Below, piece after piece: positions 36,001 to 38,036 of a DNA stretch of 64,000 nucleotides. Position 1 is the first letter of the stretch, and the number at the start of each line of letters is the position of its first letter. This DNA is from Anolis carolinensis (taxonomy: Eukaryota). The position numbers are program-made. The stretch is taken from the NCBI RefSeq assembly GCF_035594765.1, contig NC_085846.1, positions 40,473,190-40,537,189 of the forward strand, read 5' to 3'.

Positions 36001-38036
36001 TTTCTTAAGGAGGTACAAAAACTGGACTGCTACATACAGATCACAATTTTTGCTTTTTATTTGTAATTCACTATTTTCCATTCATGTATCACACCTTGCA
36101 CAAGAGATACAAACGGTCAGTAAATGCTGTCTTAAACTGAAGCTCCCCTCCAGTGGCTGGCTCTTCTACAGTTCCTCTTTTGGAAAACAAATCAGGTTGG
36201 AAACAATGGATTATTAGCACTACTGTGAATATAACTAGAGGGGGAACCTGCCTTGTGAGAAAAACTAAATATAGGGTGTTCTGGCCTTCAGTAAAGTATG
36301 ATCTGCCAGCATAGAAAGCAGCAGGTGCACTAAGGGTGTTCCCCAGCTCTCATCCAGCAGATCTTCAATATTAAATGTATACATAAACACACATTTCCCA
36401 TAGGGACAATTTCCATTCTTTGCACACATCCCAGCAGAGGACTTTTGTTTTCATTGATACACAATTCCGCAATAATGTACATGTAACACAAGGGCTATAA
36501 AGGTTAGCAATTAGTCTTTCAATTCCCAAACCAAGGCCACTGCTGGCTTTTTTGAAAGCTGCCCAGTACTACAGCTATGCCTTTGCAAACAAAATGAGTC
36601 TTTCCATGTTCCTGCATGCCTCTTGTTTCCAGTACTGCATTTTAAAACCTTTCAAAAACAATGTGCCCATCATTTTCTTCTTGCAGAGTACTGCCAATTA
36701 CAACCCATTTGATAGGAAAAGAGCAGTACTCTGCAAGAAGAAAATGATGGGCACATTGTTTTTGAAAGGTTTTAAAATGCAGTACTGGAAACAAGAGGCA
36801 TGCAGGAACATGGAAAGATTACTAATAATATAGTAGGCCTGAGTTAGCTGCTAACTGATAATTCTAGACAGTAAAAACAATAATATAACCATGTTTACTC
36901 CATTTAACTTCTGATTACCTGGTTGTTGTGGAAATTATTACAGCAACTATGATGGAATGCTTCCCCTTGGAGTTAAGAATGAAGAGAACTGGAAAGAATG
37001 CCAAATAAATATACAGTACTTGGGGATTGTTTTCTACTCCCTCTTATTTCAGACAATATTAGAAAGGTGGAAGGGAGAGAAGGAACAAAAAAAGCTGTGT
37101 ATAATCAACCCCTTTATCCTTTGCAATACGAAAAGTTGCAGACTCTGAAAACTCTTCTTCCCTACATTCCAGTTATAGCTGCAGTGCAGTTACTGTCCCA
37201 TAAAAACAGAACAACATAAAGTGCCAGTTGGTATCTTATGCAAAAATACAGGTTTGTGTTATTTTAAATGTTATGGGCATCCTAGTGCAATTGTTCACTC
37301 TGGCACCTATGCCAACATAAATGTGTTTTAATAAATACAAGTGCACCATGAAAGACAGCTTAGTAGATAAACGTGCTTAAGGACATTCAAAAGGAACAAG
37401 CAGAAGAAGTTACCCTAGTACTGCTTGCTATTAACCAGACCTGGTGACTCCTGATCTAAGGGAAGGTACCACATACAACCTTGAGGCAAATGGGCAAGGA
37501 TCTTAGCATCAGCATCAAAAAGGCATCTGATTCCCTTCCTTCCATGAAGGACCTGTGAACGCCCCCTCACACACAGATATGGGAGCTGGTGTATTTGAAG
37601 CAATCTTGAGGAAAACATGACAGAAGGCAAGAGAGTTCTACAAGCCAACTCATTGCTCTTGTGTGCCCCAGGAAATATAGTCAGGCCGAGTGGCAGCATG
37701 ATACTCATCAATCAGCTCCTGCACAATCTTGCGGGAATCATCAAGCTCATCAAAATTCTCTTTGAATATGTCTTCCTTGCGGAACTGTTCCAGGAAGGCT
37801 TCACGTTTGCGTAGTTTGTCGTATTGATGGCAGGTACGTTCGAAGAGCTGGACAAAAAATGTAAATGGTTCAGAAAATGCATGAGAAAGGGTACATAGGA
37901 AGAGTGATTTAGTATCAGGAATAAATAGACAAATCTTACTGCACCTTGAATAATGTAATAAAAAGGAGGCAGAAATTATCTCAGAGTATATTTTAAATGC
38001 CAGAACTATATTAATTTGAGAACATCAAACCACTCA

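What the first reader, a model, noticed from the sequence alone, without database searches (positions are those of the whole stretch)
36599..36818. Perfect 96-bp hairpin between the convergent 3' ends of PLEKHH3 and TUBG1
Seen: two 96-bp arms with no mismatches around a 28-nt loop, with no TSD, no recognisable transposon terminus and no second copy noticed in the window. It lies about 885 nt past the PLEKHH3 terminal-exon stop and about 830 nt past the TUBG1 stop. Inference: a very recent inverted duplication (template switch). If transcribed from either strand it would form a long perfect dsRNA stem, a possible substrate for ADAR or Dicer (endo-siRNA, proto-miRNA) or a cruciform/fragile site.
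Basis: partly seen in the sequence, partly recalled or inferred. Interest (0 to 1): 0.65.

Follow-up and report, generated by a model that had tools for sequence, protein, structure and literature searches.

The report
Perfect 96-bp inverted duplication, anole intergenic
A flawless 96-base inverted duplication sits between the tail ends of two anole lizard genes, most likely a one-step DNA copying slip with no shown function.

Summary
Arms 36599-36694 and 36723-36818 are 96 nt, 100% complementary and 28 nt apart. In 20 of 20 dinucleotide shuffles the longest perfect stem was 10-14 nt.

The gene context also holds. The PLEKHH3 stop is at 35712-35714 (+) and the TUBG1 stop at 37650-37652 (-). 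The window is Anolis carolinensis-like, not human.

There is no target-site duplication of 3 nt or more at any of 81 offset pairs. A genuine hAT MITE in the same window shows a perfect 8-bp one. No second copy of the arm lies in the window.

One new detail: the spacer ends ..GGAAAAGA and the right arm ends ..GGAAAGA. That is a 5-nt exact match (7 nt with one gap), with null P about 0.0014 per model; the mirror model gives 0 nt. This fits a '3-2-1-4' template switch in which the right arm is the new copy.

It is a long example of a known mutation type. Genome copy number, other lizards, raw reads and RNA could not be checked, so a low-copy transposon or an assembly artefact stays possible. The dsRNA, miRNA and fragile-site ideas are untested. 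Perfect arms alone bound the age only weakly.

The parts
36599..36694 (.). Left arm, inferred to be the original sequence that served as template
   Evidence: The polarity is inferred from the junction microhomology.
36695..36722 (.). 28-nt spacer (loop), inferred to be ancestral sequence that once ran straight on into 36819
   Evidence: It shows no significant similarity to the flanks.
36723..36818 (.). Right arm, the exact reverse complement of the left arm and inferred to be the newly inserted copy
   Evidence: identity asserted in the script.
36715..36722 (+). Spacer 3' end, GGAAAAGA. Its last 5 nt (36718-36722, AAAGA) equal the last 5 nt of the right arm.
   Evidence: exact suffix match of 5 nt, or 7 matches with one 1-nt gap. 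The null frequency is 0.0014 (exact, 5 or more) and 0.0016 (gapped, 7 or more) per model over about 198,000 random placements.
36812..36818 (+). Right-arm 3' end, GGAAAGA, the microhomology partner at the inferred return jump
35646..35714 (+). Coding part of the PLEKHH3 last exon (AKEIVQLLQASMFSTTLQRETH, then stop TGA at 35712-35714)
   Evidence: tblastn of named lizard PLEKHH3 proteins, translation, and the acceptor ..tttcag|GC read
37650..37847 (-). Coding part of the TUBG1 last exon, with the stop at 37650-37652
   Evidence: ORF. It matches residues 387-451 of 451 of PDB 'Tubulin gamma-1 chain' with E = 1e-35. Upstream exons carry Tubulin and Tubulin_C Pfam hits.
37004..37009 (+). AATAAA on the PLEKHH3 strand, 186 nt past the hairpin. 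If this signal is used, the hairpin lies inside a PLEKHH3 3' UTR of about 1.3 kb.
   Evidence: Hexamer scan. Weaker ATTAAA signals lie before the hairpin at 35930 and 36370. Actual usage is not known.
37327..37332 (-). ATTAAA on the TUBG1 strand, about 320 nt past its stop and about 510 nt before the hairpin. The next signal on that strand (AATAAA, 36056-36061) lies beyond the hairpin.
   Evidence: Hexamer scan. Actual usage is not known.

Best explanation
This is a real, single-copy, one-step templated inverted duplication, that is, a template-switch mutation.

Inferred ancestral sequence: left arm (36599-36694), then the 28-nt spacer (36695-36722), then directly TTACTAAT (now at 36819).

Inferred event:
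1. A growing plus-sense strand had just made the spacer end ..GGAAAAGA.
2. It left its template and copied the left arm backwards (36694 to 36599), using either itself or the opposite strand as template. That made the right arm.
3. When its new 3' end read ..GGAAAGA, it re-annealed to the site it had left and carried on with TTACT.

In four-point notation this is a 3-2-1-4 event, a pure 96-nt insertion. A polymerase doing break repair (foldback or snap-back synthesis) would give the same product.

What is shown: the structure, the sharp ends, the missing TSD and the junction match. What is inferred: the polarity, the mechanism, and that the element is neutral. I take it to have no evolved function. 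It is simply a structure that would fold into a 96-bp duplex if transcribed.
For: - Exact reverse-complement copy of adjacent sequence, 96 of 96 positions.
- The palindrome stops abruptly.
- No direct repeat of 3 nt or more flanks it at any of 81 offset pairs. Random 220-nt spans show a 3-nt repeat in 67% of 2000 trials, and the hAT-N1 copy at 22786-22920 gives a perfect 8-bp TSD under the same scan.
- The spacer end and the right-arm end share AAAGA (5 nt exact; 7 matches with one gap). The null frequency is about 0.0014-0.0016 per model, so about 0.003 for two models.
- The mirror model, with the left arm as the new copy, has 0 nt.
- No other copy of the arm lies in the window.
- Neither arm nor loop resembles the flanks: 36 to 299 of 300 shuffles score as well.
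- The terminal heptamers TCTTTCC and GGAAAGA occur 0 times in the main text of the anole DNA-transposon survey, whose tables list each family's TIR (PMC3014272).
- Literature, passages read: 3-2-1-4 events create single inverted repeats and are one of the two majority patterns (PMC5453318; PMC7954356). Template switching makes perfect stems in one step (PMC10710096).
- Literature, abstract read: foldback inverted duplications form at breaks using microhomology (PMC11724301).
Against: - The first jump has no microhomology. The last three spacer bases cannot pair with the spacer's 5' end (read).
- At 96 nt the copy is longer than the events quoted in the passages I read: 28 nt and up to 83 nt, up to 59 bp, mostly 5-34 bp at yeast breaks.
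- The junction match was found after looking, and P of about 0.003 is moderate.
- No outgroup, second haplotype or read data were available, so the single-arm ancestral state is a prediction and has not been observed.
- A 64-kb window is a tiny fraction of the genome. By my recall the genome is about 1.8 Gb, so a family would need roughly 80,000 copies for a 95% chance of a second copy here. 'No second copy' therefore says little against a low-copy mobile element.
Confidence: 0.62

Rival explanations
1. A young copy of a low-copy, nearly fully palindromic mobile element (a MITE or foldback-type transposon) that inserted here.
For: - The window is rich in palindromic MITEs: hAT-N1-like copies at 22786-22920 and 58058-58192, and a second hairpin family at 42333-42527 and 58671-59110.
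- The anole genome holds many recently active DNA transposon families (PMC3014272, passages).
- Genome-wide copy number could not be checked.
Against: - No TSD of 3 nt or more at 81 offset pairs, although a copy with 0 of 192 arm changes should still have an intact one. The same scan recovers the 8-bp TSD of a much older hAT-N1 copy.
- The ends carry no TA or TTAA.
- The termini do not appear among the TIRs printed in the survey's main text (0 occurrences).
- No second copy lies in the window, whereas both real hairpin families occur 2 or more times.
- The Helitron pattern fits only in part. The 5' TC is present, but the base before it is G, not A. The Helitron features are recalled, plus the survey's 'lacking TIRs, TA TSDs'.
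- This model does not explain the junction microhomology.
Confidence: 0.12
2. An assembly, polishing or library artefact: a fold-back or chimeric molecule, or a mis-join, wrote a second, inverted arm that the animal does not have.
For: - Perfect arms are what an artefact made from one template would give.
- In-vitro polymerases also switch templates at microhomology.
- Fold-back artefacts are documented in long reads, at about 0.55-0.6% of ONT genomic reads (PMC12870357, passages).
- The sequencing technology and the reads behind this window are unknown to me.
Against: - Read-level fold-backs invert the read about its midpoint, usually over kilobases. They were 'virtually' absent from PacBio HiFi (passages).
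- Here only 96 nt are inverted. Unique sequence in the expected gene order and orientation continues on both sides.
- A consensus assembly needs most reads to agree.
- The nearest N run (44335-44483) is 7.5 kb away.
- Cloning in E. coli tends to delete long palindromes and does not create them (recalled).
Confidence: 0.12
3. An older palindrome that was once longer or had no spacer. Its centre was later rearranged (centre-break type revision), or its arms are kept identical by conversion between them or by selection on a hairpin RNA.
For: - Perfection alone does not date the event. The upper bound is 16-74 My depending on the rate (plus my arithmetic).
- The asymmetric 28-nt centre is what centre-break repair leaves behind (recalled; no paper read).
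Against: - 96-nt arms are short for efficient conversion (recalled).
- Selection for pairing would tolerate G-U pairs and compensatory changes, and would not demand 96 of 96 identity.
- The spacer-end and arm-end match is not expected under this model.
- No Rfam family reaches threshold at the site.
Confidence: 0.05
4. In addition to its origin, which this reading does not contradict, the hairpin already acts as an RNA element. It would be transcribed in a long PLEKHH3 3' UTR or in TUBG1 read-through, and then edited by ADAR, diced into endo-siRNAs, or used in 3'-end processing.
For: - It lies 885 and 832 nt past two convergent stops.
- The only canonical AATAAA signals downstream of each stop lie beyond the hairpin: plus strand at 37004, minus strand at 36061-36056.
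- The RNA fold is -180.5 kcal/mol.
- Template-switch hairpins inside transcribed DNA have become miRNA genes (PMC10710096, passages).
Against: - There is no expression or small-RNA evidence of any kind.
- ATTAAA signals lie before the hairpin on both strands.
- The stem is 96 bp, against the roughly 35-bp preference for pri-miRNA stems (passage).
- All 8 Rfam matches with E up to 10 in 35500-38000 are below their gathering scores (best 45.4 against 75 bits). The gathering run over the whole window found 0.
- The anole miRNA paper's main text names neither gene (0 occurrences). Its precursor table is a supplement that I could not open.
Confidence: 0.08

Closest known systems
Short-range template-switch mutations (four-point model, event type 3-2-1-4; Ripley-type quasi-palindrome conversion)
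   Same: A segment is copied in reverse complement from sequence a few tens of bases away, which makes a perfect inverted repeat in one step. The inferred switch-point order is 3-2-1-4 (PMC5453318; PMC7954356; passages).
   Different: The copy is 96 nt, longer than the examples in the passages I read (28 to 83 nt; 59 bp). It is a pure insertion and not a replacement cluster. No ancestral sequence is available to run the actual test.
Foldback or snap-back templated insertions at double-strand breaks (SD-MMEJ, Pol-theta end joining, yeast foldback inversions)
   Same: These also give a local inverted duplication with microhomology at a junction (PMC11724301, abstract; PMC5728401 and PMC2943611 seen only as search listings).
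   Different: The reported events are mostly 5-34 bp. They use microhomology to prime the foldback, and none is seen at that junction here. The sequence alone cannot tell repair from replication.
Palindromic MITEs of the anole genome, e.g. hAT-N1_AC (135 bp, 57-nt TIRs, 8-bp TSD NYYTARRN)
   Same: Similar size class, and almost the whole unit folds into a hairpin. Copies of this family lie in the same window.
   Different: Those copies have a TSD, a CAG.. terminus, many copies and imperfect arms (82-88% here). The finding has no TSD, no known terminus, no second copy in the window and perfect arms.
Inverted-repeat Alu pairs in 3' UTRs, and hairpin-RNA (hpRNA) endo-siRNA loci of flies and mouse oocytes (recalled, no paper read)
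   Same: If transcribed, a long intramolecular duplex in or just past a 3' UTR would be the same kind of substrate for ADAR, Dicer and dsRNA sensors.
   Different: Those are made of two transposon copies or much longer arms, and they have RNA evidence. Here transcription is unknown.
De novo miRNA genes born from template switching (PMC10710096, passages)
   Same: Proposed origin of a perfect stem in a single mutation inside or beside a transcribed gene.
   Different: Those stems are of miRNA size. The pri-miRNA preference is about a 35-bp stem with a loop of 10 nt or more. This stem is 96 bp, it has no small-RNA evidence and it matches no Rfam family.

Membership tests
Template-switch mutation (3-2-1-4 inverted-repeat event) | The new segment is the exact reverse complement of nearby sequence | tested here: met
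   96 of 96 positions, with a 28-nt gap
Template-switch mutation (3-2-1-4 inverted-repeat event) | The ancestral or outgroup sequence lacks the copy and is otherwise collinear | not testable with these tools
   No eukaryotic genome, read or population data are on hand. The predicted empty site is 36599-36722 joined to 36819 onwards.
Template-switch mutation (3-2-1-4 inverted-repeat event) | The junctions are compatible with a polymerase leaving and re-annealing (supportive, not strictly defining) | tested here: inconclusive
   The return junction has 5 nt exact or 7 gapped, P about 0.0014 per model. The departure junction has 0 nt (read).
Cut-and-paste DNA transposon / MITE | Target-site duplication flanking the inverted termini | tested here: not met
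   No match of 3 nt or more at 81 offset pairs. The control MITE gives a perfect 8-bp TSD.
Cut-and-paste DNA transposon / MITE | Multiple dispersed copies in the genome | not testable with these tools
   Only the window could be searched, and it holds 0 further copies. A 64-kb window has almost no power against low-copy families.
Cut-and-paste DNA transposon / MITE | Termini matching a known superfamily or anole family | tested here: not met
   TCTTTCC and GGAAAGA occur 0 times in the main text and tables of PMC3014272. Only the TIRs printed there were covered, not Repbase or Dfam.
Helitron | 5' TC, 3' CTRR, insertion between A and T, and a short 3' hairpin (recalled) | tested here: not met
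   A 5' TC is present and a CTAA lies 7 nt past the right arm. But the base before TC is G, and the 'hairpin' is 96 bp and makes up the whole unit.
Canonical miRNA gene | Stem of about 35 bp with an apical loop of 10 nt or more (PMC10710096 passage) | tested here: not met
   The stem is 96 bp and the loop 28 nt
Canonical miRNA gene | Match to a curated family, or small-RNA reads from both arms | tested here: not met
   Rfam: the best match is 45.4 bits against a gathering score of 75, and 0 matches reach gathering over the whole window. Small-RNA reads cannot be tested here.
hpRNA / endo-siRNA locus | A long inverted repeat that is transcribed and yields 21-23-nt RNAs | not testable with these tools
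   The structure is present. No RNA data are available.
Read-level fold-back artefact | The inversion runs about the read midpoint, with the same locus on the opposite strand out to the read end | tested here: not met
   Only 96 nt are inverted, and unique collinear genes lie on both sides. The definition comes from PMC12870357 passages. Raw reads cannot be tested.

The most novel reading that the evidence does not exclude
The hairpin is a newborn RNA gene caught at 'day zero'. It would be a template-switch product sitting in the overlap of the termination zones of two convergent genes. It would already be transcribed from both strands and processed into endo-siRNAs or hyper-edited, or it would act as a roadblock or cleavage site that helps to end convergent transcription. 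That would make it a natural before-and-after case for de novo small-RNA gene birth in a reptile.
Probability: 0.07. Interest if true: 0.6.

Novelty: new member of a known kind. Interest (0 to 1): 0.3.

Why it matters
If the structure is real, it is an unusually long and clean example of a one-step template-switch inverted duplication. Its junctions are still unblurred by later mutation, so the polarity of the event can be read off the sequence.

Such events are proposed as the raw material for new hairpin RNAs. A perfect 96-bp duplex between two convergent, expressed genes is a simple place to test three things:
- whether a newborn hairpin is transcribed, edited or diced;
- whether a palindrome of this size is stable or polymorphic in a vertebrate germ line;
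- whether the predicted single-arm site exists in related species.

On present evidence it is a neutral structural variant of local interest only.

Tried and rejected
- **Arm as a decayed repeat of its flanks.** By eye the left flank looked similar, and CAGTACT/AGTACTG sites cluster at 36564-37417. Smith-Waterman alignment of arm, arm reverse complement, loop and loop reverse complement against both flanks was at chance: 36 to 299 of 300 shuffles scored as well. Dropped.
- **Known RNA family.** The E-value run over 35500-38000 gave 8 weak matches, all below gathering. They are generic miRNA-hairpin models lying on the stem. The gathering run over the whole window gave 0.
- **Coding potential.** The two ORFs that run through the hairpin (36501-36830 and 36515-36709) have 0 Pfam families (129 ORFs scanned between about 20 kb and 47.5 kb out of 301 ORFs of 62 aa or more in the window).
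- **Transposon ends.** TSD scan, and the terminal heptamers searched in the anole transposon survey. Both negative.
- **Anole miRNA literature.** The main text of PMC4858913 names neither gene. Its list of 546 precursors is in a supplement, and supplements are closed.
- **Format error.** One literature look-up failed on a term format and was resent corrected.

Not tried because no tool reaches it:
- genome-wide copy number;
- orthologous loci in other lizards;
- reads, RNA-seq and small-RNA-seq.

PLEKHH3 and TUBG1 were searched exon by exon only. The N run at 44335-44483 was left as it is.

Full report
**1. Observation**

Two 96-nt arms (36599-36694 and 36723-36818) are 100% complementary around a 28-nt spacer. 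My own scan for perfect stems with loops of 3-100 nt gave 96 nt at 36599 with loop 28. With the hairpin masked, the best in the window is 28 nt, inside a repeat at 42364. In 20 of 20 dinucleotide shuffles of the window the longest stem was 10-14 nt.

As RNA the region folds at -180.5 kcal/mol, against a shuffle mean of -55 (sd 4.9, z = -25.4, 0 of 200 shuffles as good). As DNA it folds at -120.1 kcal/mol (z = -26.2, 0 of 200). Of the 25 longest inverted pairs listed for the whole window (89 found), this is the only perfect one; the rest are 72-97%.

**2. Context**

The window is not human, and I treat it as Anolis.
- A MyTH4-domain exon (30469-30804, +) is 100% identical over 90% of its length to PLEKHH3 of Anolis carolinensis.
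- Other lizards follow at 84-96% (313 proteins at E of 1e-10 or better among 578 candidates).

I worked exon by exon and did not join exons into a spliced model.

PLEKHH3:
- tblastn of named lizard PLEKHH3 proteins places exons from 12127 to 33994 on the plus strand.
- For the long forms there is a last short exon at 35646-35708.
- That exon reads AKEIVQLLQASMFSTTLQRETH, then TGA at 35712-35714, after an acceptor ..tttcag.

TUBG1:
- On the minus strand, ORF pieces carry Tubulin and Tubulin_C domains.
- The last exon ends ..[10 protein letters not shown] with its stop at 37650-37652.
- It matches residues 387-451 of 451 of 'Tubulin gamma-1 chain' in the PDB at E = 1e-35.

Poly(A) hexamers:
- Plus strand: ATTAAA at 35930 and 36370, AATAAA at 37004 and 37330.
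- Minus strand: ATTAAA at 37332-37327, AATAAA at 36061-36056.

On each strand a weaker signal lies before the hairpin and a canonical one beyond it. The sequence therefore cannot say whether the hairpin is inside a 3' UTR, only in read-through RNA, or not transcribed.

**3. Is it a transposon?**

The palindrome ends abruptly and the flanks are not complementary to each other.
- A scan of direct repeats of 2-10 nt at 81 combinations of end offsets (up to 4 nt either way) found nothing of 3 nt or more.
- Random 220-nt spans give a 3-nt match in 67% of 2000 trials.
- The same scan on the 135-bp MITE at 22786-22920 returns its perfect 8-bp duplication TCCTAAAC.

That MITE fits hAT-N1_AC in the anole transposon survey: 135 bp, TSD NYYTARRN, 57-nt TIR CAGTGGTTCTCAACCTGTGG (PMC3014272, passages). 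It keeps its TSD although its arms are only 82% complementary. An insertion with 0 changes in 192 arm positions should still show one.

Three further points argue against a transposon.
- The ends carry no TA or TTAA.
- The terminal heptamers occur 0 times in that paper's main text, whose tables print each family's TIR.
- The arm has no other copy in the window: blastn with word size 7 gave a best non-self match of 17 nt at E = 0.13. Both real hairpin families occur at least twice.

The last point is weak. By my recall the genome is about 1.8 Gb, and then only a family of roughly 80,000 copies would be expected to show up again in 64 kb.

**4. What the junctions say**

The spacer ends ..TAGGAAAAGA and the right arm ends ..CATGGAAAGA. 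They share the last 5 nt exactly, or 7 nt with one single-base gap.
- In about 198,000 random placements of a 96+28-nt layout in this window, a match that good occurs at a frequency of 0.0014 (exact) or 0.0016 (gapped).
- Allowing for the two possible polarities, that is roughly 0.003.
- The mirror comparison, spacer start against left-arm start, gives 0 nt.

This is the pattern expected if the right arm is the new piece. A growing strand that had just made ..GGAAAAGA switched template and copied 36694 back to 36599. Once its 3' end read ..GGAAAGA, it re-annealed where it had left and went on with TTACT.

In the four-point model this is a 3-2-1-4 event.
- That type 'creates an inverted repeat' (PMC5453318, passages).
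- It is one of the two majority patterns in great apes (PMC7954356, passage).
- The same group showed that such events make perfect stems in one step and have seeded miRNA genes (PMC10710096 and PMC8794818, passages).
- Foldback synthesis at a double-strand break would give the same product (PMC11724301, abstract; SD-MMEJ papers seen only as listings).

I cannot separate replication from repair.

**5. What does not fit**

- The first jump shows no microhomology: the last three spacer bases cannot pair next to the copy start.
- 96 nt is longer than the events quoted in the passages I read (28, 59, up to 83 nt; mostly 5-34 bp at yeast breaks).
- The junction match was noticed after the fact.
- An apparent clustering of CAGTACT sites around the locus came to nothing. 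Alignments of arm and loop to both flanks were at chance level.

**6. Artefact?**

I cannot see reads, so this stays open.
- Documented fold-back artefacts are read-scale inversions about the read midpoint. They were about 0.55-0.6% of ONT genomic reads and virtually absent in PacBio HiFi (PMC12870357, passages).
- Here only 96 nt are inverted, and collinear unique sequence with the expected genes continues on both sides.
- The nearest N run (44335-44483, left untouched) is 7.5 kb away.

**7. Age**

Zero differences in 96 pairs bounds the arm-to-arm divergence at about 3% (95%). With t = 3/(192*mu), the age is less than about 74 My at the 2.1e-10 per site per year used for this species. The paper itself calls that rate low (PMC6681179, passages). 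At 1e-9 the bound is about 16 My. This is my own arithmetic.

So 'very recent' does not follow from perfection alone. It is made plausible by the known instability of long palindromes (recalled) and by the much greater decay of the MITE hairpins nearby.

**8. Function**

Nothing shows one.
- No Rfam family reaches its gathering score.
- The 8 sub-threshold matches are generic miRNA-hairpin models.
- A 96-bp stem is not the roughly 35-bp pri-miRNA shape (passage).
- The ORFs through the hairpin have no Pfam match.
- The anole miRNA study does not name either gene in its main text. Its precursor table is a supplement I could not open.

If transcribed, the duplex would be the kind of substrate that ADAR, Dicer and dsRNA sensors act on, as with inverted Alu pairs in 3' UTRs and hpRNA loci (recalled). 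That is inference only. At the DNA level the 28-nt spacer should make cruciform extrusion harder than for a spacer-less palindrome (recalled).

**9. Verdict**

The best reading is a real, probably neutral, one-step templated inverted duplication with the right arm as the copy (confidence about 0.6).

Rival readings:
- a low-copy palindromic transposon, about 0.12;
- an assembly or library artefact, about 0.12;
- an older, maintained or centre-revised palindrome, about 0.05.

An RNA role on top of the origin has about 0.08. It is a long, clean member of a known kind of mutation, and interest is modest.

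Noticed in passing
window 22786-22920 and 58058-58192: Two copies of a 135-bp, almost fully palindromic MITE with ends CAGTGGTTCTCAACC... The first has a perfect 8-bp TSD, TCCTAAAC. It fits hAT-N1_AC (SPIN-related) in the anole transposon survey. The second copy is older and its TSD has decayed (CTGTAGAC against CACTGGAC).
   Followed up: partly
window 42333-42527, 58671-58781, 58916-59110: A second hairpin-forming repeat family (GG.GTGTTGTGTGGTTTC..GCTGTATG..). Its arms are 86-95% complementary, and it holds the second-longest perfect stem in the window (28 nt at 42364). 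I did not identify it.
   Followed up: no
window 6099-7240: Two inverted copies of a repeat with 320-nt arms, 97% complementary and 385 nt apart, with further matching on the outside (72 nt, 93%). The sequence looks like the 3' end of a retroposon (my recall; not tested).
   Followed up: no
window 10964-13747: A dense cluster of inverted and direct copies of a repeat carrying GGGCCCTTCCACACAGCC.. It accounts for many of the 25 longest inverted pairs.
   Followed up: no
window 33742-33981 and 35646-35714: PLEKHH3 has two alternative 3' ends. The annotated X2-type proteins read the 33.7-kb exon in another frame and stop at 33979-33981 (..GLWFCPL). The long form splices on to a short last exon. 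The anole tail after ..LLQA stops about 25-40 residues earlier than in the skink and cordylid proteins compared.
   Followed up: partly
window 44335-44483: A run of 149 N in the region upstream of the TUBG1 exons that were mapped.
   Followed up: no
window 46695-47216 (+): A 174-aa open frame with a weak, sub-threshold Pfam match to the C17orf50 C-terminal zinc-binding domain (E = 0.0017, 18.6 bits against a cut-off of 27).
   Followed up: no
window 39867-40060: A long G/C homopolymer-like tract, which reads as poly-Gly or poly-Pro in several frames. It lies between TUBG1 exon pieces and is presumably intronic low-complexity DNA.
   Followed up: no
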